Source of the DNA: an uncultured Reyranella sp.
GTDB taxonomy: Bacteria > Pseudomonadota > Alphaproteobacteria > Reyranellales > Reyranellaceae
Assembly: GCA_937915145.1 (NCBI GenBank)
Contig: CALDNT010000059.1
Location: forward strand, 3,474 to 67,473
Direction of reading: 5' to 3'
DNA: 64,000 nt
Shown here: positions 6,784 to 48,808 of the stretch, one piece after another
How the letters are laid out: every line of letters begins with the position of its first letter
Numbering within the stretch: position 1 is the stretch's first letter
Notes under the pieces: generated by a model
Databases searched by the model: none
What the model was told of the DNA's origin: nothing
The model's input: only the letters and a program-made list of their open reading frames with translations
Translations under genes and position numbers: made by a program

Positions 6784-7725
6784 TCACCGGACGTCGCGCA
6801 GGTAACTGTCCGCTGCCGGCGCCTGCTTTATCAGTCCGCGCTTCACCAGGAACGCCGCGAAGGCGTCATAGCGCGCCCGGTCGAGCGCCGCCGGGTCGTT
6901 TGCCAGCAGGGGCACCGTGTCCCGCCACGCCATCCGGTTGAGGTCGTTGTCGAGTTCCTTGCCATACTTTGAGAAAATGGCCCAGGCCTCGGACGAGTTG
7001 GCCTTGAGCCATGCCGTAGCTTCCGTGATAGCAGCGAGAAACTTCTTGGTCCGTGCAGCATCGTGCGTTTCGCGTTTGGCGACCAGAATGAGTTCGTCGT
7101 AGACCGGCACGCCGTTCTCCTCGACCAGCCAGAGACGACCCTTGGCCTTGTTCAGTTCAAGGTCGTTCAGTTCGAAATTGCGGAAGGCGCCGATCACGCC
7201 ATCGACCTGCCGGCTCATCAGGGCGGTGGTGAGGGCGAAGTTGATGTTGATGAGGGTGACGTCCTTGAGCGTGAGGTCGGCGCTTTCGAGGATCGCGCCC
7301 AGCAGTGCTTCGTCGAAGCCCGCGATCGAATAGCCGATCTTGCGCCCTTTGAAGTCGGCGATGGATTTGATCGGTCCGTCATCGAGGGCGACCAGCGCAT
7401 TGAGCGGCTGGGCAACGAGGACACCGACCCTTACCAGGGGCAGCCCTTCGGCCACCAGCATCTGCAGCGTCGGCTGGTATGACACGGCATAGTCGGCCTG
7501 GCCCGCCGCCACCAGCTTGGGCGGCGCATTGGGATCGGCCGGCGCGATCAGCTCGACGTCGAGGCCGTGCTTGGCAAAGAAGCCCTTCTGCTTGGCGATG
7601 ACCAGCGCGGCATGGTCGGGGTTCACGAACCAATCGAGCAGGACTCGGACCTTGTCCTGCGCGGCGGCCGGCAAAGCCGTGCACGCAATCGTCAACGCCA
7701 TCATCGCCTGAACCAGTAGACGCAT
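6784..7725 (-). CDS. ABC transporter substrate-binding protein, NMT1/THI5-like (ThiY-like pyrimidine-precursor binding protein)
   Basis: Signal peptide MRLLVQAMMALTIACTALPAAAQ followed by an NMT1/THI5-like SBP body. Last gene of the TPP-riboswitch-controlled operon. Start re-set to ATG 7725..7723, because the listed 481-aa ORF runs into the permease gene. Confidence 0.8.
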   Translation of the reverse strand: MRLLVQAMMALTIACTALPAAAQDKVRVLLDWFVNPDHAALVIAKQKGFFAKHGLDVELIAPADPNAPPKLVAAGQADYAVSYQPTLQMLVAEGLPLVRVGVLVAQPLNALVALDDGPIKSIADFKGRKIGYSIAGFDEALLGAILESADLTLKDVTLININFALTTALMSRQVDGVIGAFRNFELNDLELNKAKGRLWLVEENGVPVYDELILVAKRETHDAARTKKFLAAITEATAWLKANSSEAWAIFSKYGKELDNDLNRMAWRDTVPLLANDPAALDRARYDAFAAFLVKRGLIKQAPAADSYLRDVR

Positions 7726-8465: not shown

Positions 8466-9181
8466 GCCACGCTCCGGAGCTCGGAAATCAACCGCGCCTG
8501 CAAGGCGAGCAGCGCCGGGTCGGCTGGATCGCGCGGTATCGGCCCCGGCGGCTCGAGGATCGGCCCCGCCGCGAGAGGTGTTCCCGACAGAACGCGGATC
8601 TGATCGCCGATGCGGAGTGCTTCCAGGGGATCGTGGGTTACCAGCACCACTGTCCGGCCGGCGAGCAGTCGTGCGGCAAGGTCCTGCAGTTCCAGGCGCG
8701 TCACCGCATCGAGGTGGGCAAAAGGCTCATCCATCAGGACAACGACGCGGTCCTCGCAAAGAGTGCGGGCAAGCGCCACGCGCTGGCGCATGCCTCCGGA
8801 CAGGGCACCGGGTCGGTCCGTCAGACGATCGCCGAGTCCTACCTCTGCAAGCAAAGCGCGCGCCCGGGGTTCGGCGGCCCGCAACGCTTCTCGGTCGTGG
8901 CGCAGGCGATAACCCAGCATCACGTTGCCGAGCACATCCAGCCACGGCAGCAGCAGGTCGCGTTGCGCCATATAGGCTACGGGGTGTGCACGCTCGGTGT
9001 CGGGCAACAGACCCGCCAGCCAGCGCAGCAGTGAGGTCTTGCCGACACCGCTGCGTCCCAGCAGGCAGGTCGTCCGGCCTGCGGGAAATTCGAGGGTGAG
9101 CTTGTCGGCCACCACGCGATCGCCGAAGGCGATGCGCGCGTTGCGCACGATAAGGGAAGGGGAGGTCGTCACAGAATTCAC
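8462..9181 (-). CDS. ABC transporter ATP-binding protein (ThiZ-like)
   Basis: Walker A GRSGVGKTS, signature LSGGMRQRVALART and Walker B VVLMDEP. GTG start directly abuts the 3' end of the TPP aptamer. Confidence 0.85.
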   Translation of the reverse strand: MNSVTTSPSLIVRNARIAFGDRVVADKLTLEFPAGRTTCLLGRSGVGKTSLLRWLAGLLPDTERAHPVAYMAQRDLLLPWLDVLGNVMLGYRLRHDREALRAAEPRARALLAEVGLGDRLTDRPGALSGGMRQRVALARTLCEDRVVVLMDEPFAHLDAVTRLELQDLAARLLAGRTVVLVTHDPLEALRIGDQIRVLSGTPLAAGPILEPPGPIPRDPADPALLALQARLISELRSVA

Positions 9182-9262
9182 CAGTCCCTACGCCGGCATT
9201 AACCGGATCAGGTTCCCGGGGTCGTTCTTGCGAACCTCTCAGCCGCGGCGCGGCTCCCCCCG
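9182..9262 (-). promoter_or_regulatory. TPP (THI-box) riboswitch
   Basis: The minus strand reads GGGGAGCCGCGCCGCGGCUGAGAGGUUCGCAAGAACGACCCCGGGAACCUGAUCCGGUUAAUGCCGGCGUAGGGACUGG. It contains the invariant CUGAGA, ACC-N-GAACCUGAUCCGGUUAAUGCCGGCGUAGGGA core, immediately 5' of the transporter operon. Confidence 0.9.
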
Positions 9263-9293
9263 ATGATTGGCCTGCACTATGAGAACAGACCCA

Positions 9294-12722: not shown

Positions 12723-12799
12723 CGGGGCGTAGCGCAGTCTGGTAGCGCGTCTGCCTTGGGCGCAGAAGGTCGTCGGTTCGAATCCGGCCGCCCCGACCA
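12723..12799 (+). tRNA. tRNA-Pro (anticodon UGG)
   Basis: CGGGGCGUAGCGCAGUCUGGUAGCGCGUCUGCCUUGGGCGCAGAAGGUCGUCGGUUCGAAUCCGGCCGCCCCGACCA folds into a cloverleaf. Anticodon loop is CUUGGGC; CCA is encoded. Confidence 0.9.
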
Positions 12800-12828
12800 C
12801 GCCCCCGTCAGTTGGAGTATCGGAGTTC

Positions 12829-13131
12829 ATGAAGGTTCGTATCTTCAAGCCGGCCAAGACCGCCATGCAGGCCGGCATGCGCAACACCCACGAATGGGTG
12901 CTCGAGCCCGAGCCGTCGCCCAAGCAGGTCGATCCGCTGATGGGCTGGACCAGTTCGCGTGACACCATGGAACAGGTGAAGTTGCGCTTCGCCAGCCTCG
13001 ACGAAGCCAAGGCCCACGCCGAGAAGAATGGCTGGCAATACACGGTCGAGCAGCCGCATACGCGCGTGGTGAGACCCAAGGCCTATGCCGACAATTTCGC
13101 CTATACCCGCGTCGGCCGCTGGACGCACTGA
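12829..13131 (+). CDS. ETC complex I subunit conserved-region protein (NDUFS4-like)
   Basis: MKVRIFKPAKTAMQAG...EWVLE...DPLMGWTSS.D...F.S.EEA..YAEKNGW.Y is the typical alphaproteobacterial NDUFS4 homologue. Confidence 0.8.
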   Translation: MKVRIFKPAKTAMQAGMRNTHEWVLEPEPSPKQVDPLMGWTSSRDTMEQVKLRFASLDEAKAHAEKNGWQYTVEQPHTRVVRPKAYADNFAYTRVGRWTH

Positions 13132-13168
13132 CGGCACGCCATTGCGGCGTATGCTATCCTAGGCATTC

Positions 13169-13244
13169 GGGCCCGTAGCTCAGTGGATAGAGCACCTGCC
13201 TTCTAAGCTGGTGGTCGCTGGTTCGAATCCAGCCGGGCTCGCCA
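13169..13244 (+). tRNA. tRNA-Arg (anticodon UCU)
   Basis: GGGCCCGUAGCUCAGUGGAUAGAGCACCUGCCUUCUAAGCUGGUGGUCGCUGGUUCGAAUCCAGCCGGGCUCGCCA. The cloverleaf folds with a U29-U41 mismatch in the anticodon stem and a G2-U71 wobble. Confidence 0.85.
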
Positions 13245-34970: not shown

Positions 34971-35045
34971 TGGCTCCGGAGGTAGGACTCGAACCTACGA
35001 CCGGGCGATTAACAGTCGCCTGCTCTACCGCTGAGCTACTCCGGA
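34971..35045 (-). tRNA. tRNA-Asn (anticodon GUU)
   Basis: The reverse complement UCCGGAGUAGCUCAGCGGUAGAGCAGGCGACUGUUAAUCGCCCGGUCGUAGGUUCGAGUCCUACCUCCGGAGCCA folds as a cloverleaf. Confidence 0.9.
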
Positions 35046-35142
35046 ATGGAAATCGTCGCGGCGGCGGTATCCAGCCCGCGAATGCGCCGTGTTTTGACAG
35101 AGCGGTCCTGCCCACGCAAGGGCCGTTGAGCGTCCCAGTTTG

Positions 35143-35216
35143 TGGAGGCCTGGGCCGGAATCGAACCGGCATACGCGGATTTGCAGTCCGCTGCATCACC
35201 ACTCTGCCACCAGGCC
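35143..35216 (-). tRNA. tRNA-Cys (anticodon GCA)
   Basis: The reverse complement GGCCUGGUGGCAGAGUGGUGAUGCAGCGGACUGCAAAUCCGCGUAUGCCGGUUCGAUUCCGGCCCAGGCCUCCA folds as a cloverleaf. Confidence 0.9.
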
Positions 35217-40900: not shown

Positions 40901-41734
40901 CTACGAAGCCTTTCTCAGATCGGGCACGTAGGGCTTGCTGGTGAAGTGCTCCTGGCCGTCGCCTGCGGCGAAGCGCAGGCCGGCCCGGCGGATCGCCTCG
41001 TCGTCGACCGGCTCGAGTGGCACGAAGTAGCGGTCATCCACCCTGGTGAAAGTGTCGTTGTCGACACGGTTGTAGCAGATCAGCAGGGTCCAGCGCCGGT
41101 TGGCCGAGCGGTTGGCGTCGGAACGGTGGATGGCGTTGCAATGGAAGATCAGCGCGTCGCCGGCCTCGAGTTCACCGTACTCGACCGGGCACTTCTCCAG
41201 GATGTGCGGCAGGCGCTTGGGGTCGACCTCGTTCTGGGTCGGCGACAGCGGCGTGTGGTCGATGCGGCCCAGCCTATGCGAGCCGGTGGCGATCTGCAGG
41301 CAGCCATTGTTCCTGTCGGTTTTGTCGAGGGCGATCATCACCGAGAGCAGGTCGGGGCGGAGACAGCCGTTGTAGTACCAGTAGCCATAATCCTGGTGCC
41401 ATTCCCAGGCGCCGCCAACCTCGGGTTCCTTGGCCGTCAATTTCGATTGATAGTGATAGACCGGTCCTCCCAGAAGGGCGGCCGATGTGTCGACCATGCG
41501 ATGGGTGCGGGCGGCCAGGCCGTAGACGCTGTCGCCGGCACGGTTCCACAGCGCGATGCGCGTCGAACGGCCCTCGCCATCGCGGCGATCGAGGATGGAG
41601 TCGCGGACGGCGGGATCTTCCTCCATCGCGCGGGTCAAAAGCTTCACCTCGTCGGGCGCGAACAGGCCGCGGGCGTAGGTGAAACCCTTTTCGTTGAATT
41701 CGGCCATCTGGGCCGCGTTGAGGATGTTGGACAT
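40901..41734 (-). CDS. phytanoyl-CoA dioxygenase (PhyH) family protein
   Basis: WHQDYGYWY..., ...GDALIFHCNAIHRSDAN.S...R (2-His-1-carboxylate, Fe(II)/2OG type). Start at ATG 41734. Confidence 0.8.
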   Translation of the reverse strand: MSNILNAAQMAEFNEKGFTYARGLFAPDEVKLLTRAMEEDPAVRDSILDRRDGEGRSTRIALWNRAGDSVYGLAARTHRMVDTSAALLGGPVYHYQSKLTAKEPEVGGAWEWHQDYGYWYYNGCLRPDLLSVMIALDKTDRNNGCLQIATGSHRLGRIDHTPLSPTQNEVDPKRLPHILEKCPVEYGELEAGDALIFHCNAIHRSDANRSANRRWTLLICYNRVDNDTFTRVDDRYFVPLEPVDDEAIRRAGLRFAAGDGQEHFTSKPYVPDLRKAS

Positions 41735-41756
41735 CGGTTCCTCGCCTGAATCGGGG

Positions 41757-43301
41757 CTAGGCCGGGCGAAAGACGTTGCGGCCGCCCTCATCGGAGACCG
41801 ATACCTTACGCCCAAGCTGCTCGCGCGTCAGCATGTCGGCCAGGATCGCGGGCTCGTTGGGGGCCATGGCGACGAAACGGTCGCCCGAGGTATCGAGCCG
41901 GCCGAGAATATAGCCGCGTTCCGGCGCATCCTTGCCGTAGGTAACGCAGTAGGTCTCGATCGTGCCGCTACCGGAAGGGTTGGCCTCGACCTTGCGCCTG
42001 GGGCGGGCATCGAGTTCCGCCTGGAATTTCTTTGGATCCTCGCGCTTCCACGGCCCCTTCGTCGGCTCGGTCGAATAAAGGCCGGCCGAGTGCTTGGTGA
42101 GATAGTTGCCGTTGGCCGTCACCATGCCGAACGAGCCGGGCTTGCCGCGCACCACGTTCATCATTTCGGCGATGGAATGGGTGACGTAGTTGTTGCCCGG
42201 ACCACCGAAGAACGGCAGGCCGCCGGTGATGCTGATCGGCCGCGGATCGTCCTCGGCGATGCCGATTTCGGTCATCGCCACTTCGACGGCCGACGGGAAA
42301 CAGCTGTAGAGATCGAAGGCGGCGACGTCGGAGACCTTTTTGTTCGCCATGTCGAGCGCGATGCGTGCGCAGCCGCGGATCGCGGGTGAGGCGTCGAGCT
42401 TTTCGCGCTCCGAGACCACCCAGGTGTCCGTGCCGTCGGCGCAGCCGTGCAGGAACACCCAGCGGTCCTGCGGGATACCCCATTCCGTCGCCTTGCCGAC
42501 CGACGTCATGAGTACGGCGGCGGCCTGGTCGATGATGGCGTTGGCATTCATCAGCCGCGGATAGGGGAAGCAGATCCAGCGATTGTCGTCGGAAATCGTC
42601 GAAAGCTGCTCGGCGGTGTAACCGTCGCGCCGCGTCGCGAGAGGGTTGGCTTTTGCCACGGCCGCGAGGCGCTCGAACAGCCGGCCCATCGCCTTCATGT
42701 GGCCGTCGACATCGCGCTTCAGACCGCCACGGATGGCGTTTTCCAGCAACGGGTAGAAATGGATGGCGGCACGCAGTTCGTGACGGGCTTCCTCGTCGCT
42801 ATAACCCCAGCGTGGGTCGCCAATGCGGATGGGATCGCCGCCGGGAGCCTCGTTCCAGTCGATCTTCATGCCGGCCCGGCGCGCGATCTGCGTGCTGCGC
42901 AAAAGTTCGGCGCCGCAGATCAGGGCGAGCTCTGTCTCGCCGCGGGCGATCTCCTCGGCGAAGCGGTTGACCAGGTACTGGGGCATGTTGCCGCCGGAGT
43001 GGCTGTAGAGCAGTTGTCGCGGATCGGCATGCAACCGGTCGGCGACGCTCTTGGGCGGATTGCTCGAACGGCCGTAGGGCGAGGCGAAACGTGGGCTGAT
43101 GTCGCTGAAGAACTCCATCACGGCCAGCGCATCGATCTCGTGGCCGAGCGCATGGCCGCCGATCGCGGCTTTGGTGTCGGCAAGCGCCAGATTTGCCACC
43201 TCGGCGCAGAAGGCCACGCGTGAGCGTTCGCTCGATGGCTTGCCGGCAGTGTCGGTGATCTGACCACTGCCGACCAGGATCGGCGTCCGTGGGTCGATCA
43301 T
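41757..43301 (-). CDS. thiolase-like protein (annotated-type 'acetyl-CoA acetyltransferase') with C-terminal OB-fold-like extension
   Basis: Thiolase-like core (…LYSCFPSAVEVA…GGPGNNYVTHSIAEM). ATG 43301 overlaps the upstream stop (ATGA). Confidence 0.7.
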   Translation of the reverse strand: MIDPRTPILVGSGQITDTAGKPSSERSRVAFCAEVANLALADTKAAIGGHALGHEIDALAVMEFFSDISPRFASPYGRSSNPPKSVADRLHADPRQLLYSHSGGNMPQYLVNRFAEEIARGETELALICGAELLRSTQIARRAGMKIDWNEAPGGDPIRIGDPRWGYSDEEARHELRAAIHFYPLLENAIRGGLKRDVDGHMKAMGRLFERLAAVAKANPLATRRDGYTAEQLSTISDDNRWICFPYPRLMNANAIIDQAAAVLMTSVGKATEWGIPQDRWVFLHGCADGTDTWVVSEREKLDASPAIRGCARIALDMANKKVSDVAAFDLYSCFPSAVEVAMTEIGIAEDDPRPISITGGLPFFGGPGNNYVTHSIAEMMNVVRGKPGSFGMVTANGNYLTKHSAGLYSTEPTKGPWKREDPKKFQAELDARPRRKVEANPSGSGTIETYCVTYGKDAPERGYILGRLDTSGDRFVAMAPNEPAILADMLTREQLGRKVSVSDEGGRNVFRPA

Positions 43302-44461
43302 TTCAACAACGCCTCGATTTCGGCCGGCGCCAGACCGGCATCGGCAAGAACGCTCTTCGTATGTTCGCCCAGGCTGGCGACCTTGGGGCCACTCTGGAGA
43401 GGAGAGCCGGAGAAACGGAAGGGCGGGGCGGGCGACTTGAAGGCGCCGGCGCTGTCCTCGATTGTGCACAGCGAACCGCGATGGGCGACCTGCGGATCCT
43501 CCAGGGCCTCGGTGACCGTGAGATAGGGCGAGCACGGCACGCCGTGCTTCTCAAGGACGGCGATGCATTCCTTGACGGTCATGGTCTTGGACCAGGCCTC
43601 GAACTCGTCGACGAACTGGCCCCAGTTCATGCGCCGGTCGGCGTATTTCTCGAAACGCGGGTCAGCCAGCCAGTCGCGCCGGCCCGCCGCCGTCGCCATG
43701 TCCTGGAAGGTGCGCTCGCTCGCCGTGGCCAGCATGACATAGCCGTCTTTGGCCTCGACCGGGCCGTACATCGGCCGCGACGGCATCTCGAAATCGAACT
43801 GGGCGCGATTGACCTCGCCCAGCAACATGCCGACCAGGGTCTCGAACATCGAGACGTCGACCATCTGGCCCTTGCCGGTGACATGGCGCTGGTGAATCGC
43901 CGCCAGGATACCGCCCATTGCATAGGCGCCGCTGGCATAGTCGGCAACGAAGATGCCGCAGTTGTCCGGCCGCTCGCGGCCTTGCTGGTAGAAGGCATGG
44001 GCCATGTCGTAGCCGGTCGAGGCGTGGATGACCGGCGCATAAGCCGGCCGGCCGGCGCCGGGGCCGGTCTGGCCATAGCCCGAGATCGCGCAGTAAATGA
44101 TCCGCGGATTGACCTTCGCGAGTTCCGGGTAGTCGAGCCCCAGCCGCTTCATCACACCAGGCCGATAGTTCTCCACGACGATGTCAACGGCCGCTACCAA
44201 TTTCTTCACTGCGGCGATGGCCTCGGGACGCTTGAGGTCGAGCACGATCGACCGCTTGCCGGCGTTTAGCTGGCCGAACATCGTGCCGGCGCCGTTGCGC
44301 TGCACCGGCCGGCTGCGCATGAGGTCGCCTTCAGGCGATTCGATCTTGATCACATCGGCGCCCATGTCGGCCAGAAGGCGGCTGCAGTGAGGGCCGGCAA
44401 TGGTGGTCGAAAAATCGAGGACTCGCAGGCCGTCGAGTGGCCTTGCCATTACTTCGGTCAT
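43298..44461 (-). CDS. CaiB/BaiF-family (type III) CoA-transferase
   Basis: PLDGLRVLDFSTTIAGPHCSRLLADMGADVIKIE and GYGQTGP. Confidence 0.85.
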   Translation of the reverse strand: MTEVMARPLDGLRVLDFSTTIAGPHCSRLLADMGADVIKIESPEGDLMRSRPVQRNGAGTMFGQLNAGKRSIVLDLKRPEAIAAVKKLVAAVDIVVENYRPGVMKRLGLDYPELAKVNPRIIYCAISGYGQTGPGAGRPAYAPVIHASTGYDMAHAFYQQGRERPDNCGIFVADYASGAYAMGGILAAIHQRHVTGKGQMVDVSMFETLVGMLLGEVNRAQFDFEMPSRPMYGPVEAKDGYVMLATASERTFQDMATAAGRRDWLADPRFEKYADRRMNWGQFVDEFEAWSKTMTVKECIAVLEKHGVPCSPYLTVTEALEDPQVAHRGSLCTIEDSAGAFKSPAPPFRFSGSPLQSGPKVASLGEHTKSVLADAGLAPAEIEALLK

Positions 44462-45439: not shown

Positions 45440-46507
45440 ATGCGACAGGGGTTGATGGCCGCCCTCGATACGGCCTGGCGCGGGATCGGCGCGCCGGGTG
45501 TGTGGTTGACGGGCGCAGAGCGGGTGATGATCGTCGAAGAAGCTCGCGCGGCACGTGCCTGCGAGCTTTGCCACGCGCGCAAAGCTGCATTGTCTCCGGC
45601 GGCAGTCGAGGGGCGGCATTCGGCGATAACAGGCCTGCCTCAGGCGTCGGTCGAGGCGGTTCACCGGATCGTCACCGACCCGGGGCGCCTGTCTGAAGCC
45701 TGGTACCGGCGGGTCATCGCAATGGGGATCAGCGACGAGGCCTATGTCGAATTGCTGAGCGTGGTGGCGATCACGACGGCGGTAGATACGTTCGACCGTG
45801 CCGCCGGAAGCGCCCGGCGTGCCATGCCGGTACCGCGCGAGGGCGAGCCGAGCCGGCGGCGTCCCCGAGGCGCCAAGCCGGGACTGGGCTGGATGCCGAT
45901 GCTCGCGCCAGAGGACGTGGCGTCAGACGATCCTCCGCTTTACGAAAGCGGCGGGCGGATCGGCGGCAACGTTCACCGCGCGCTGAGCTTGGTGCCCGAG
46001 GCAATGATGCAGTTCTGGGACATGTTCGAGACGATGTACCTGCCACAGGAGGCGATGCGGGATTTCGGCCGCGAGTACCGCGCGATCGATCACGCACAGA
46101 TCGAGATGCTGGCGGCGCGTGTCGCCGTCCAGAATCAGTGCGTCTATTGAACCACCAGCCATTTGGCCTTGCTCCGGGGGAGCGGCAAGCACAACGGGAC
46201 GGACTACAGCTTCGAGGGGATCGTTGATGGCGATGGCGGCAGCGGGGTTGCCGCCGAGGCCGAGTTGCTGGCTTTCGCCGACGCGGCGGTCGTCATGGAC
46301 GATCGGCTTGGCGAGTGTCGCGGCCATGTCGTCGACCGACTGGGCCACGGGGCGATGATCGATGCCGCGGCGGTGATTGCCGGCTTCGACGCCATCACCC
46401 GCGTGGCGGACGGATCGGGCATTCCATTGGAAGCGCCCAAGGCCGAAGCGACGGCGGAGTGGCGCAATCGCCTGGGGATCGATGCTTTCTGGACCATGAA
46501 GAGCTGA
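45440..46507 (+). CDS. AhpD/carboxymuconolactone-decarboxylase (CMD)-family protein with in-frame TGA at 46148-46150 (candidate selenocysteine; otherwise a nonsense-disrupted gene)
   Basis: ORFs 45440..46150 and 46163..46507 share one frame. Read through, the sequence gives ...VQNQCVY[TGA]TTSHLALLRG..., which is the N-x-C-x-Y-C-x-x-x-H CMD active-site motif with TGA at the second Cys. The downstream 119 codons complete the CMD fold (…FDAITRVADGSGIPLE). Confidence 0.55.
46165..46190 (+). promoter_or_regulatory. candidate bacterial SECIS-like hairpin
   Basis: GGCCUUGCUCC-GGG-GGAGCGGCAAGC forms an imperfect stem of about 9-10 bp with a G-rich apical loop. The stem starts about 15 nt after the TGA and the loop lies about 25 nt after it. 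Confidence 0.35.
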
Positions 46508-46558: not shown

Positions 46559-47749
46559 ATGAGCGCGACTACGGATGTTGGTTCAGCCTATGGCCTGAGG
46601 CCGCCGACTTATGATGCCAAGCTCACTGAAGTGGGCCGCGGCACACCGATGGGCGAGTTGTTGCGCCGCTACTGGCATCCAATCGGCGTGGTCGCGGATG
46701 CTGGCGCAGCGCCACGGCCGGTCCGGGTTCTCGGCGAGGATTTGATCCTGTTCCGCGACGGCCAGGGGCGGGCCGGGCTGGTCTACCCGCGCTGCTGCCA
46801 TCGTGGCACCACGCTCTACTACGGCAGGATCGAGGAGCGCGGCATTCGCTGCTGCTATCACGGCTGGCTGTTCGACGTCGAAGGCCATTGCCTCGAGATG
46901 CCATGCGAACCCAAACCGGCGGGCGCGCAATGCCAACGCGTGCGGCAGCCCTGGTATCCGATCGAGGAGCGCTACGGTCTGATTTTCGCCTATCTCGGTC
47001 CACCGGAACGCAAGCCGCTGCTGCCGCGCTACGAATGCCTGGAAGTGCTGCAGCCCGGGGAGTTCGTCGAGGCCGACGATTCCAGCATCGGCAGCGGCGG
47101 CATCGAGATCGCTCCCTGCAACTGGCTCCAGCATTTCGAGAACGTGGTCGATCCCTACCACGTGCCAATCCTGCACGGCTCGTTCAGTGGCCCGCAGTTT
47201 GTCGAGCAGATGAACGCCTTTCCCAAAGTGAGGTTCGAGTACAGCCGCCACGGAGTGAAGTCGACTTCGGTGCGGCCCGGCCCCGACGGCAAACGCTTCC
47301 GCCGCGTCACGGAGGCCGTGGTGCCGGCCCTGCGCGTGGTACCCAATCCGCAGGTTGCGCGGTACGGCATGGTCGAATCGATCGGCTGGACCTTGCCGAT
47401 CGACGACACGCACTACCGCATCTACGTCGCAGGACGGGTGCGGGAGAAGGGTGAGCTCACTAAATTCAGGTCACGCTACAATGGCAAGAGCTGGGCGGAG
47501 CTGACGCCGGAGGAGCATCAGAGATTTCCAGGCGACGTCGAAGCGCAGGTCGGCCAGGGGCCCATCACCTTCCATTCCGAAGAACATCTGATGTCATCGG
47601 ATCAGGGCATATCGATGCTGCGCATTCTGTTGCAGAAGCAGGCCGACATCGTAGCCGCAGGCGGAAATCCCGTCGGTGTCGCATTCGACGCGGAGAGTGC
47701 CTACGTCAGGTTCGACGCCGGGCAATATCTCGACGAGGCCTCAGCGTAG
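46559..47749 (+). CDS. Rieske-type aromatic ring-hydroxylating oxygenase, alpha subunit
   Basis: Rieske motif CCHRGTTL...CCYHGW, then a mononuclear-iron region (NWLQHFENVVDPYHVPILH). Confidence 0.85.
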   Translation: MSATTDVGSAYGLRPPTYDAKLTEVGRGTPMGELLRRYWHPIGVVADAGAAPRPVRVLGEDLILFRDGQGRAGLVYPRCCHRGTTLYYGRIEERGIRCCYHGWLFDVEGHCLEMPCEPKPAGAQCQRVRQPWYPIEERYGLIFAYLGPPERKPLLPRYECLEVLQPGEFVEADDSSIGSGGIEIAPCNWLQHFENVVDPYHVPILHGSFSGPQFVEQMNAFPKVRFEYSRHGVKSTSVRPGPDGKRFRRVTEAVVPALRVVPNPQVARYGMVESIGWTLPIDDTHYRIYVAGRVREKGELTKFRSRYNGKSWAELTPEEHQRFPGDVEAQVGQGPITFHSEEHLMSSDQGISMLRILLQKQADIVAAGGNPVGVAFDAESAYVRFDAGQYLDEASA

Positions 47750-48808
47750 ATCGACTCCGACCGCATCCGTCACGGATGCGAAGCCGTCGCGGGCGAGCAG
47801 CGTCGCCAGCTCGTCCTTGATGCGGCGAATGAGCGGCGGGCCCTCATAGACCATGGCCGAGTAAAGCTGAACCAGGCTGGCGCCGGCCCGGATCTTGGCA
47901 TAGGCGTCTGCCCCCGAGCCGACGCCGCCGCAACCGATCAACGGGAACTGGCCTTCGACGCGCCGCGCGGTGCGGCGCAGAACATCGGTCGACAATGCCG
48001 CAAGCGGGGCGCCGGAAAGCCCTCCGGTTTCGTCGCGCCGTACGGAGCGAAGCGAAGACGGGCGCGACAAGGTCGTATTGCCGACGATGATGCCGTCCAT
48101 CCTCAGTTCGCGGCAGACGGCCACGATGTCGTCGAGATCGTCATCCGTGGCGTCCGGTGCGATCTTCACCAGCAGCGGCACCGTTCCAGGGGCCGCGGAC
48201 GACCCCGAGGCGGTAACGGCTTCCTGGACGCGCATGAGCAGTTCCGTGAGCTGGGTGCGGCCCTGGAGATTGCGCAAGCCGGGTGTGTTGGGCGACGACA
48301 CATTGCACACGAGATAATCGGCGTGGCCAGCCAGGGCGGCGCTGCAGGCGACGTAGTCCGCCGCCCGATCGACACTGTCCTTGTTGGCCCCGACATTGAC
48401 GCCGACGAACCCACGGCGGGGACGAGCGGCAAGCCTGACACGGGCTGCTTCCAGCCCCTGTCCGGGGAAGCCCATACGGTTGATGACGCCGCGGTCCTCG
48501 GGCAGGCGGAACAGCCGCGGCCTTGGATTGCCCTCCTGCGGCCGGGGCGTGACACTGCCGATCTCGACGAAGCCGAACCCCAGTGCGAGCATGGCGTCGG
48601 GCACTTCGGCGTTCTTGTCGAAGCCCGCGGCCAGGCCGATCGGGTTGGCAAGATGGCGGCCCCAGACCGAAACACCAAGCGACGCCGGGTCGGGCTTCCT
48701 GTCGCCCGGCAGCAGTCCGCTTTTCAAGGCACGAAGGGCGAGCCCGTGCGCCGCTTCGGCATCGAGACGGGACAAGATCGAGTCGGCCAGGGAATACCAG
48801 AGCGCCAT
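47741..48808 (-). CDS. pyrD: dihydroorotate dehydrogenase (quinone), class 2
   Basis: …NPIGLAAGFDKNAE…GFGFVEIGSVTP…NVSSPNTPGLR…GGV.SG.DA..KI.AGASLVQLY. Confidence 0.9.
   Translation of the reverse strand: MALWYSLADSILSRLDAEAAHGLALRALKSGLLPGDRKPDPASLGVSVWGRHLANPIGLAAGFDKNAEVPDAMLALGFGFVEIGSVTPRPQEGNPRPRLFRLPEDRGVINRMGFPGQGLEAARVRLAARPRRGFVGVNVGANKDSVDRAADYVACSAALAGHADYLVCNVSSPNTPGLRNLQGRTQLTELLMRVQEAVTASGSSAAPGTVPLLVKIAPDATDDDLDDIVAVCRELRMDGIIVGNTTLSRPSSLRSVRRDETGGLSGAPLAALSTDVLRRTARRVEGQFPLIGCGGVGSGADAYAKIRAGASLVQLYSAMVYEGPPLIRRIKDELATLLARDGFASVTDAVGVDLR

What the first reader, a model, noticed from the sequence alone, without database searches (positions are those of the whole stretch)
45440..46507. 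In-frame TGA exactly at the second Cys of the CxxCxxxH motif of an AhpD/CMD-family gene: candidate selenoprotein
Seen directly: the two listed ORFs (45440..46150 and 46163..46507) share one reading frame and are separated only by TGA (46148-46150) plus four sense codons. The joined translation reads ...MLAARVAVQNQCVY-[TGA]-TTSHLALLRGSGK.... Established knowledge: the AhpD/carboxymuconolactone-decarboxylase fold has an active site C-x-x-C-x-x-x-H, usually embedded in N-x-C-x-Y-C-x-x-x-H. Here every conserved position is present and the stop codon replaces the resolving Cys. The 119 codons after the TGA stay open and continue the CMD fold to its usual C-terminal ...A.FN..NR.ADG.G. segment (here FDAITRVADGSGIPLE). 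This argues against an old pseudogene. Cys/Sec interchange at redox CxxC sites is the classical signature of bacterial selenoproteins. From memory, AhpD-like selenoproteins and an 'alkylhydroperoxidase-related (seleno)protein' product name exist. The N-terminal half carries a second CxxCH (ACELCHARK). The gene is immediately upstream of a Rieske oxygenase.
Basis: partly seen in the sequence, partly recalled or inferred. Interest (0 to 1): 0.75.

Follow-up and report, generated by a model that had tools for sequence, protein, structure and literature searches.

The report
Known AhpD-like selenoprotein gene (CxxU)
The in-frame TGA is almost certainly a real selenocysteine codon in a redox protein of the AhpD family, but this exact family is already curated as a selenoprotein, so it is a correct call and not a discovery.

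Summary
Window 45440..46507 (+) is one 355-codon reading frame with a single internal TGA at 46148-46150, in the motif N-Q-C-V-Y-[TGA]-T-T-S-H.

With Cys placed at the TGA, the protein matches NCBIfam NF041238 'AhpD_rel_CFYUT, alkylhydroperoxidase-related (seleno)protein' end to end (433 bits, cutoff 175).

All 33 genome loci from other species and 7 more divergent copies carry TGA at this column. About 118 open codons follow it in intact copies. Rare full-length relatives carry TGT or TGC there.

The segment after the TGA is under purifying selection (dN/dS 0.077 against the closest relative).

A hairpin 21 nt after the UGA (46169-46185) fits the published bacterial SECIS consensus. It is held in place by synonymous-codon constraint, and it is broken or absent in the three Cys-form genes examined.

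TGA is otherwise the normal stop codon in this window, including for this gene itself.

One relative has selA, selB and tRNA-Sec just upstream. The Sec machinery of the window's own genome could not be examined.

Verdict: a real selenoprotein gene of an already known kind; biochemical function still unknown.

The parts
45440..46507 (+). Complete selenoprotein coding sequence: 355 residues, consisting of 236 codons, then UGA read as Sec237, then 118 codons, then a TGA terminator.
   Evidence: Searches give the frame. NF041238 at 433 bits, covering residues 2-351 of the protein and positions 2-356 of the 357-position profile; orthologues start at the same Met (MRQ-L...).
46148..46150 (+). UGA codon read as selenocysteine (Sec237), at the second position of the C-x-x-U motif (C234-V-Y-U237).
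   Evidence: TGA at this column in 33 of 33 genome loci and in 7 of 7 divergent copies. Cys-form family members have TGT or TGC here.
46169..46185 (+). Putative bacterial SECIS hairpin: 5' arm UUGCUC (46169-46174), loop CGGGG (46175-46179), 3' arm GAGCGG (46180-46185). There are 24 nt between the UGA and the apical loop.
   Evidence: fold; 6 pairs, 99.5% of cells paired in 34 sequences; synonymous-site constraint; same register in distant members; it fits the consensus published in PMC13188914. No compensatory covariation was seen.
46103..46162 (+). AhpD-type active-site segment: E222 (46103-46105), C234 (46139-46141), Y236, U237 and H241 (46160-46162), giving the pattern E-x11-C-x-Y-U-x3-H.
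   Evidence: Spacing is identical to the Glu118/Cys130/His132/Cys133/His137 proton relay of M. tuberculosis AhpD, with Tyr in place of His132 as in PA0269 (PMC3141380). E222, C234 and Y236 are invariant, and H241 is present in all loci. Pfam CMD matches residues 214-249. PDB 6k40 and 2oyo align here.
45560..45571 (+). Second, N-terminal C41-x-x-C44 motif, followed by invariant R47 and K48, in a partial AhpD-like repeat.
   Evidence: C41, L43, C44, R47 and K48 are invariant in 18 sequences, while H45 is not; residues 54-123 align with the C-terminal half of the 197-residue AhpD-like proteins 6k40 and 2oyo.
46505..46507 (+). True terminator of the gene, also TGA.
   Evidence: TGA ends 7 of the 10 confidently identified genes in the window, so recoding at 46148 depends on context and is not a change of genetic code.

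Best explanation
Window 45440-46507 is a single gene for a 355-residue AhpD-like thiol/selenol oxidoreductase of NCBIfam family NF041238. The UGA at 46148 is decoded as selenocysteine.

Inferred mechanism of decoding: during translation, SelB carrying Sec-tRNA(Sec) binds the hairpin at 46169-46185, which lies inside the coding sequence. This delivers Sec to the UGA 21 nt upstream, and translation continues for 118 more codons to the real TGA stop.

Inferred mechanism of the protein: Sec237 sits where the exposed, attacking Cys133 sits in M. tuberculosis AhpD. Cys234 is its partner and forms a selenenylsulfide. Glu222, Tyr236 and His241 form the proton relay. The conserved N-terminal Cys41-x-x-Cys44 may act as a second redox centre.

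What is shown: family membership, conservation of the TGA, the Sec/Cys pair, selection on the downstream frame, and a conserved hairpin of SECIS geometry.

What is inferred: SelB-dependent insertion in this particular organism, the redox chemistry, and the substrate, which is unknown.
For: Family: NF041238 equivalog hit at 433 bits against a cutoff of 175, full length.

Split gene calls: the 120 best homologues of the joined protein are nearly all 236 aa long, covering about 66% of the query, so gene callers stopped at the same codon. Of the 150 best relatives of the C-terminal piece, about 147 are 95-150 aa orphan ORFs starting just after that codon.

TGA conservation: 33 of 33 genome loci spanning 47-90% identity have TGA at the column. 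In 30 of the 31 intact loci 118-122 open codons follow it; L004 ends at 110. Seven of seven further divergent copies also have TGA.

Sec/Cys pair: the Cys forms P0252, P0265 and P0176 carry TGT or TGC there. The two full-length ones score 415 and 427 bits on the same model.

Selection: dN/dS of the post-TGA segment against the closest relative is 0.077, from 18 synonymous and 5 non-synonymous changes.

Hairpin: 6 bp, 5-nt loop, 99.5% of cells paired in 34 sequences, against 35-65% in slid controls. Leu245 is CTC in 31 of 31, Leu244 is CTG or TTG, Ser248 is only AGC or AGT, and Arg246 is never CGC; these are the least variable of 25 invariant six-fold-degenerate columns. The loop reads x-G-[G/U]-x-x and the spacing is 24 nt, which meets the bSECIS consensus in PMC13188914. 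The hairpin is absent from Cys-form genes L034 and L035 and is broken by synonymous Leu changes in L036.

Genetic code: TGA is the normal stop in this window.

Sec machinery in a relative: L031 has selA (579 bits), selB and tRNA-SeC 3-7 kb upstream of its copy.

Literature: AhpD-like CxxU selenoproteins are documented (PMC2398784).
Against: - No selA, selB, selC or selD lies in the 64-kb window or in 32 of the 33 fetched loci. The rest of this genome could not be searched, so Sec competence of this organism is inferred.
- The hairpin shows no compensatory base changes, only one-sided ones that keep pairing (GC to GU, UG to UA, CG to UG).
- Its folding energy is no better than that of shuffled sequence (z = 0.13).
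- No Rfam SECIS model matches it.
- LLRxS is also partly conserved as protein sequence, so some of the nucleotide conservation could reflect protein constraint.
- There are no experimental data on selenium incorporation or activity for any family member.
Confidence: 0.93

Rival explanations
1. A recent nonsense mutation or pseudogene: the TGA truncates an AhpD-like gene and the downstream frame is decaying.
For: Public gene callers annotate a 236-aa 'hypothetical protein' ending at this codon. No Sec machinery is visible in the window.
Against: The same TGA is present in 33 of 33 species and in 7 of 7 distant copies. In 30 of the 31 intact loci the downstream frame is 118-122 codons long (L004 ends at 110). 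dN/dS of that frame is 0.077-0.40 across the eight pairwise comparisons made, similar to the N-terminal part.
Confidence: 0.01
2. Two separate genes: a 236-aa protein and an independently initiated protein of about 114 aa that together form a split AhpD-like enzyme.
For: A TTG lies at 46163 and gene callers often start an ORF there.
Against: The start is not conserved. The codon for Leu242 is CTC, which is not a start codon, in 12 of 26 sequences. The split would fall inside the catalytic C-x-x-[C/U]-x3-H helix and separate Cys234 from His241. Cys-form relatives are single polypeptides.
Confidence: 0.02
3. The UGA is read through without selenium, with Trp or Cys inserted by a near-cognate tRNA, and the hairpin only slows termination.
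For: Sec machinery has not been demonstrated for this genome. The hairpin lacks covariation support.
Against: The column alternates only between UGA and Cys codons in a redox CxxC site. The hairpin's geometry and G-[G/U] loop match the SelB-binding consensus. A relative has selA-selB-selC next to the gene. The family is curated as a selenoprotein.
Confidence: 0.03

Closest known systems
NCBIfam NF041238 'AhpD_rel_CFYUT', alkylhydroperoxidase-related (seleno)protein (equivalog)
   Same: Full-length match at 433 bits (cutoff 175). Same length (355 against 357 profile positions). Same two-lobed architecture and the same C-x-Y-U-T motif with UGA at the U. Sec and Cys forms both score on the same model.
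   Different: The motif here is C-V-Y-U-T rather than the name-giving C-F-Y-U-T. The Reyranella-clade loci have V, L, A, H or E at this position, while the distant members have F or I.
'AhpD-like 1' (COG2128, CxxU) and 'AhpD-like 2' (pfam02627, CxxU) selenoprotein families from the Sargasso Sea and GOS surveys (PMC1088965, PMC2398784)
   Same: AhpD/CMD-type domain with Sec as the second residue of a CxxU redox motif. Cys homologues exist.
   Different: I could not test which of the two published families, if either, corresponds to NF041238. In GOS the Cys homologues outnumber the Sec forms (902 against 299 for AhpD-like 1). Here only about 3 of the 150 best cluster representatives carry Cys.
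Mycobacterium tuberculosis AhpD (Cys130-x-x-Cys133, Glu118, His132, His137 proton relay)
   Same: Identical spacing, E-x11-C-x-(H/Y)-(C/U)-x3-H. Pfam CMD matches over the motif.
   Different: Sec replaces Cys133, the residue that attacks AhpC. Tyr replaces His132. There is an extra N-terminal lobe with its own CxxC. No ahpC gene or any other conserved partner gene is nearby. Sequence similarity is confined to the motif region.
PDB 6k40 (annotated AhpD, 197 aa) and 2oyo (uncharacterized peroxidase-related protein, TIGR01926-like)
   Same: These are the closest solved structures by sequence (E = 1.3e-6 and 1.9e-4). Query residues 176-247 align with their CxxC-bearing half, including N-x-C-x-Y-C-x-x-S-H.
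   Different: They are single-domain proteins of about 197 residues with Cys. The query is about 355 residues, and its residues 54-123 resemble a second copy of their C-terminal half.
Escherichia coli fdhF-type bacterial SECIS and the general bSECIS model (PMC13188914)
   Same: A stem-loop inside the coding region just downstream of the UGA. It has a 6-bp upper stem, a 5-nt apical loop matching N1-G-[G|U]-N-N2, and 24 nt between UGA and loop, within the 16-37 nt range of the model.
   Different: The hairpin starts 18 nt after the UGA, against 11 nt in fdhF (the fdhF figure is from my own memory). No bulged U is evident. No Rfam SECIS model matches it.

Membership tests
NCBIfam NF041238 AhpD_rel_CFYUT (alkylhydroperoxidase-related (seleno)protein) | HMM score above the curated cutoff over the full length of the profile | tested here: met
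   433.3 bits against a cutoff of 175; protein residues 2-351 match profile positions 2-356 of 357.
NCBIfam NF041238 AhpD_rel_CFYUT (alkylhydroperoxidase-related (seleno)protein) | C-x-Y-U-T motif with Sec (UGA) or Cys at the fourth position | tested here: met
   the window has C-V-Y-[UGA]-T, and relatives have C-(V/I/L/F/...)-Y-[UGA]-T; the Cys forms P0252 and P0265 read C-F-Y-C-(T/C).
Bacterial SelB/SECIS-dependent selenoprotein gene | In-frame UGA aligned with Cys in homologues, at a redox motif | tested here: met
   family members P0252, P0265 and P0176 carry TGT or TGC at the column.
Bacterial SelB/SECIS-dependent selenoprotein gene | The reading frame beyond the UGA is conserved and under purifying selection | tested here: met
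   118-122 open codons in 30 of 31 intact loci (L004 ends at 110). dN/dS after the UGA is 0.077 against L001 and 0.09-0.40 against six of the seven more distant loci compared; against L016 it could not be computed because dS was saturated.
Bacterial SelB/SECIS-dependent selenoprotein gene | [quoted passage not shown] | tested here: met
   6-bp stem, loop C-G-(G/U)-G-(G/C), 24-nt spacing. It is conserved in 34 close and 7 distant sequences.
Bacterial SelB/SECIS-dependent selenoprotein gene | Evolutionary support for the RNA structure (compensatory changes or synonymous-site constraint) | tested here: inconclusive
   no compensatory pairs and four invariant pairs; strong synonymous constraint, with L245 as CTC in 31 of 31 and R246 never CGC; the stem is broken or absent in Cys forms, but the L036 comparison is one noisy sequence.
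Bacterial SelB/SECIS-dependent selenoprotein gene | selA, selB, selC (tRNA-Sec) and selD present in the same genome | not testable with these tools
   None are in the 64-kb window and the source genome could not be retrieved. The only support is from a relative: L031 has selA, selB and tRNA-SeC 3-7 kb upstream of its copy.
Bacterial SelB/SECIS-dependent selenoprotein gene | Selenium demonstrated in the protein (75Se labelling or mass spectrometry) | not testable with these tools
   This needs an experiment. No paper reporting it for this family turned up in the literature searches I ran.
AhpD / carboxymuconolactone decarboxylase fold (Pfam PF02627 CMD) | Pfam CMD match above the gathering score | tested here: met
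   24.3 bits against 23, only just above threshold, over residues 214-249. PDB AhpD-like proteins 6k40 and 2oyo align over the same region.
AhpD / carboxymuconolactone decarboxylase fold (Pfam PF02627 CMD) | AhpD proton relay, E-x11-C-x-(H/Y)-C-x3-H | tested here: met
   E222, C234, Y236, U237 and H241 with the same spacing. All are conserved in the relatives.
Bona fide AhpD (reductant of the peroxiredoxin AhpC) | Functional or genomic link to ahpC; AhpC-reducing activity | not tested
   No gene is conserved next to the family across clades. I did not search specifically for ahpC, and the activity needs an experiment.

The most novel reading that the evidence does not exclude
This family may be almost obligately selenium-dependent. 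About 98% of the 150 best cluster representatives at 50% identity are split at the UGA, whereas Cys forms dominate in most selenoprotein families.

Its SECIS may be locked into a conserved L-L-R-x-S peptide. Together with the conserved N-terminal CxxC lobe, the protein could be a self-contained two-centre selenol/thiol relay acting on an unknown substrate.

In Reyranella-like bacteria it could be one of the main reasons for keeping the Sec machinery.
Probability: 0.25. Interest if true: 0.35.

Novelty: already known. Interest (0 to 1): 0.15.

Why it matters
It shows that a reader working from raw sequence alone can recognise a genuine selenocysteine codon.

It also documents a practical problem. 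Most public gene calls split this gene into a 236-aa and a roughly 115-aa 'hypothetical protein'. As a result, the family and the selenium dependence of Reyranella-like soil and freshwater bacteria are largely invisible in uncurated databases.

Scientifically it adds nothing new in kind. AhpD-like CxxU selenoproteins have been known since 2005, and this exact family has a curated NCBIfam model. What remains open is the substrate and physiological role of the family, and this analysis does not resolve that.

Tried and rejected
- **Rfam SECIS models:** no meaningful hit. The only SECIS_3 match is 13 bits, E = 7.7, and lies 140 nt downstream.
- **Folding energy of the post-UGA RNA:** no better than shuffled sequence, z = 0.13 and 1.08. 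Thermodynamics alone cannot identify the element in 65% GC DNA.
- **Covariation test:** no compensatory pairs. I relied instead on synonymous-site constraint and the Cys-form controls.
- **Sec machinery:** The SelD probe is unverified, so its negative result is weak.
- **Source genome:** no exact match for the 236-aa product.
- **Plasmids:** no copies.
- **Literature:** searches for Reyranella or Enhydrobacter with selenoproteins found nothing useful.
- **Structure prediction:** A model of the Cys-form relative P0252 built from unpaired fragment rows was poor, with mean pLDDT 59 and only residues 230-350 confident. I drew no structural conclusions from it and did not run a fold search.
- **Rieske oxygenase as a functional partner:** rejected. 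It is adjacent only in the window and L001, lies 1.5-4.8 kb away in 8 loci, and was not detected in the remaining loci.
- **Genetic-code reassignment of TGA:** rejected.

Full report
**1. Observation**

One reading frame runs from ATG 45440 to TGA 46505-46507 with a single internal stop, TGA at 46148-46150. The four codons that follow (T-T-S-H) precede the TTG at 46163 where the ORF lister restarts. The local translation is V-A-V-Q-N-Q-C-V-Y-[TGA]-T-T-S-H-L-A-L-L-R-G-S-G-K. The tail after the TGA has 118 sense codons, not 119.

I scanned the whole window for frames interrupted by one TGA with coding-type GC3 on both sides. Three turned up. The other two are ordinary neighbouring genes that share a frame, each with a Met shortly after the stop.

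**2. What it is**

With Cys substituted at the TGA, the 355-residue protein matches the NCBIfam equivalog NF041238, 'AhpD_rel_CFYUT – alkylhydroperoxidase-related (seleno)protein'. The score is 433 bits against a cutoff of 175, covering protein residues 2-351 and profile positions 2-356 of 357. Pfam CMD (PF02627) matches only the motif region, residues 214-249, at 24.3 bits against a gathering score of 23.

The closest solved structures by sequence are the 197-residue AhpD-like proteins 6k40 and 2oyo. Query residues 176-247 align with their CxxC half. Query residues 54-123 align with their C-terminal half. The protein is therefore a partial AhpD-like repeat carrying its own C41-x-x-C44, followed by a linker and a complete AhpD-like lobe carrying C234-x-x-U237.

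The catalytic pattern E222-x11-C234-x-Y236-U237-x3-H241 has the same spacing as the Glu118/Cys130/His132/Cys133/His137 proton relay of M. tuberculosis AhpD. Tyr replaces His132, as in PA0269 (PMC3141380).

**3. Comparative evidence that the TGA is decoded**

*Split gene calls.* A search of 5.8 billion proteins with the joined sequence returned 120 best hits at 69-99% identity. Nearly all are 236 residues long, covering about 66% of the query. A search with the 118-residue tail alone found 657 relatives. Among the best 150, about 147 are 95-150-residue orphan ORFs starting a few residues after the TGA position. Gene callers have therefore split this gene at the same codon in hundreds of independent assemblies.

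*DNA of relatives.* A scan of GTDB species representatives returned 33 loci. They come from Reyranella, Enhydrobacter aerosaccus ATCC 27094, Desertibaculum subflavum, Acetobacteraceae MAGs and one betaproteobacterial MAG. All 33 have TGA at this column. In 30 of the 31 intact ones the frame stays open for 118-122 further codons; L004 ends at 110. Three loci (L014, L029, L031) have frameshifts or a deletion elsewhere in the gene, probably from assembly. Seven more divergent copies, fetched through their C-terminal fragments, also have TGA. These carry the name-giving C-F-Y-U-T motif or C-I-Y-U-T.

*Sec/Cys pair.* The rare full-length relatives P0252 and P0265, and the fragment P0176, carry Cys at the column, encoded by TGT or TGC. 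The two full-length ones score 415 and 427 bits on NF041238. This gives the classical Sec/Cys pair.

*Selection.* Against the closest relative (L001), the post-TGA segment has 18 synonymous and 5 non-synonymous differences. That gives dN/dS of 0.077, compared with 0.186 for the N-terminal part. More distant comparisons that could be computed give 0.09-0.40 on both sides of the TGA. The tail is therefore translated and selected in the window's own lineage.

*Genetic code.* TGA terminates 7 of the 10 confidently identified genes in the window, including this gene itself. A reassigned code is excluded.

**4. The recoding signal**

Twenty-one nucleotides after the UGA lies a hairpin at 46169-46185, UUGCUC-CGGGG-GAGCGG.

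*Conservation.* In 34 sequences the six pairs form in 99.5% of cells, against 35-65% when the partner columns are slid. There are no compensatory double changes. All changes are one-sided and keep pairing: G-C to G-U four times and C-G to U-G twice. In six of the seven distant copies the U·G wobble becomes U-A. The structure is therefore supported by conservation rather than by covariation.

*Synonymous-site constraint.* The conservation goes beyond what the protein sequence needs. Among 25 invariant Leu, Ser or Arg columns, Leu245 (CTC in 31 of 31) and Leu244 (CTG 29, TTG 2) are the least variable. Ser248 uses only AGC or AGT. Arg246 is the only Arg column with no CGC, although CGC is the family's preferred Arg codon at 52%. 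This keeps loop position 3 as G or U.

*Fit to the published model.* The loop reads x-G-(G/U)-x-x in all 41 sequences. With a 6-bp stem and 24 nt between the UGA and the loop, this satisfies the bacterial SECIS model: 4-16 bp stem, 3-9 nt loop matching N1-G-[G|U]-N-N2, and 16-37 nt spacing (PMC13188914).

*Natural controls.* Cys-form genes L034 and L035 lack the hairpin. L036 keeps the peptide L-L-R-A-S-G but spells the leucines CTT CTG, which breaks two of the six pairs. L036 is a single, frameshift-ridden assembly.

*Negative results.* Folding energy is no better than that of shuffled sequence. Rfam has no matching SECIS model.

**5. Sec machinery**

The window has no tRNA-Sec and no selA or selB detectable by tblastn.

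One relative supplies a physical link. In L031, selA (579 bits), a frameshift-broken selB and tRNA-SeC (7052-7146) lie 3-7 kb upstream of the orthologue.

**6.

(a) In M. tuberculosis AhpD, Cys133, the second Cys, is the exposed residue that forms the cross-link with AhpC Cys61. Cys130 is partly buried (PMC6626918). Sec therefore occupies the attacking position, as is usual for selenoenzymes, not the resolving one.

(b) The Rieske gene (46559-47749) is directly adjacent only in the window and L001. In eight Reyranella-clade loci it is 1.5-4.8 kb away. It was not detected in the remaining loci, and in L010 and L012 pyrD is the immediate neighbour. A census of flanking ORFs found no neighbour shared across clades. 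The synteny of CoA-transferase, DMT transporter, this gene and pyrD is confined to the Reyranella clade.

(c) The N-terminal motif is a conserved CxxC followed by R47 and K48. His45 is not conserved.

**7. Comparison with what is known, and novelty**

AhpD-like selenoproteins with a CxxU motif were described in the Sargasso Sea and GOS selenoproteome surveys. They are a browsable family in BSepDB (PMC1088965, PMC2398784, PMC13326102). NCBIfam has an equivalog model named after this very motif. The gene is therefore a routine member of an already known family.

One feature is mildly noteworthy. Sec forms are extremely predominant among the cluster representatives, with roughly 147 of 150 split at the UGA. 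In GOS, by contrast, 'AhpD-like 1' had 299 Sec forms against 902 Cys forms. The 150 are only the best-scoring hits, and only 7 copies were verified at the DNA level, so this ratio is indicative rather than measured.

The biochemical function of the family is unknown.

**8. Verdict**

I put the confidence that this is a genuine SelB/SECIS-decoded selenoprotein gene at about 0.93. The residual doubt is that this genome's Sec machinery has not been seen. Novelty: already known. Interest: low.

Noticed in passing
L031:3620-7146, and the orthologue at L031:10001-11049: In a betaproteobacterial MAG, selA (579 bits), a frameshift-broken selB and tRNA-SeC (7052-7146, at about the point where selB would end) lie just upstream of tryptophan 2,3-dioxygenase, a kynureninase-like gene and then the AhpD-like selenoprotein gene. 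This is the only locus where Sec machinery is linked to the family. A 2026 review (PMC13188914) mentions selC embedded in or overlapping selB in some lineages.
   Followed up: partly
L037:2272-3360 and L037:3670-4758: Two tandem paralogous copies of the selenoprotein gene on one metagenomic contig. Each has its own TGA (C-F-Y-U-T) and its own hairpin.
   Followed up: partly
L036:5408-6507: A Cys-form relative (TGC) keeps the peptide L-L-R-A-S-G, but its synonymous Leu codons break the hairpin. It looks like a recent Sec-to-Cys conversion followed by SECIS decay. The assembly has frameshifts in the N-terminal half, so this needs caution.
   Followed up: partly
public protein collections (hits to window 45440-46507): The family is systematically mis-annotated. 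The 120 best N-terminal hits are nearly all 236-aa proteins truncated at the UGA, and about 147 of the 150 best C-terminal hits are orphan 95-150-aa ORFs. Where a source gives a name, it is mostly 'hypothetical protein'.
   Followed up: yes
window 46559-47749 (+) and 47741-48808 (-): A Rieske-type oxygenase gene (motif CHRG...CCYHGW) converges on pyrD, the quinone-dependent dihydroorotate dehydrogenase gene (493 bits), and overlaps its 3' end by 9 nt. The Rieske gene is present in some Reyranella-clade loci and missing from others. In 11 loci a periplasmic-binding-protein-like ORF sits between the selenoprotein gene and the next gene.
   Followed up: partly
window 9167-9270 (-): TPP (thiamine pyrophosphate) riboswitch, Rfam RF00059, 73 bits against a gathering score of 54.
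   Followed up: no
window 12723-13244 (+) and 34971-35216 (-): Two tRNA pairs: tRNA-Pro(UGG) with tRNA-Arg(UCU), and tRNA-Asn(GUU) with tRNA-Cys(GCA). There is no tRNA-Sec in the window.
   Followed up: no
window 40901-44461 (-): Upstream of the DMT transporter lie three genes on the minus strand: a family III CoA-transferase (formyl-CoA-transferase-like, below equivalog cutoffs), a thiolase-like protein (PRK08257-type, 538 bits, below cutoff) and a PhyH/ectoine-hydroxylase-like dioxygenase. The CoA-transferase and the DMT transporter are syntenic with the selenoprotein gene in 17 Reyranella-clade loci but not beyond them.
   Followed up: partly
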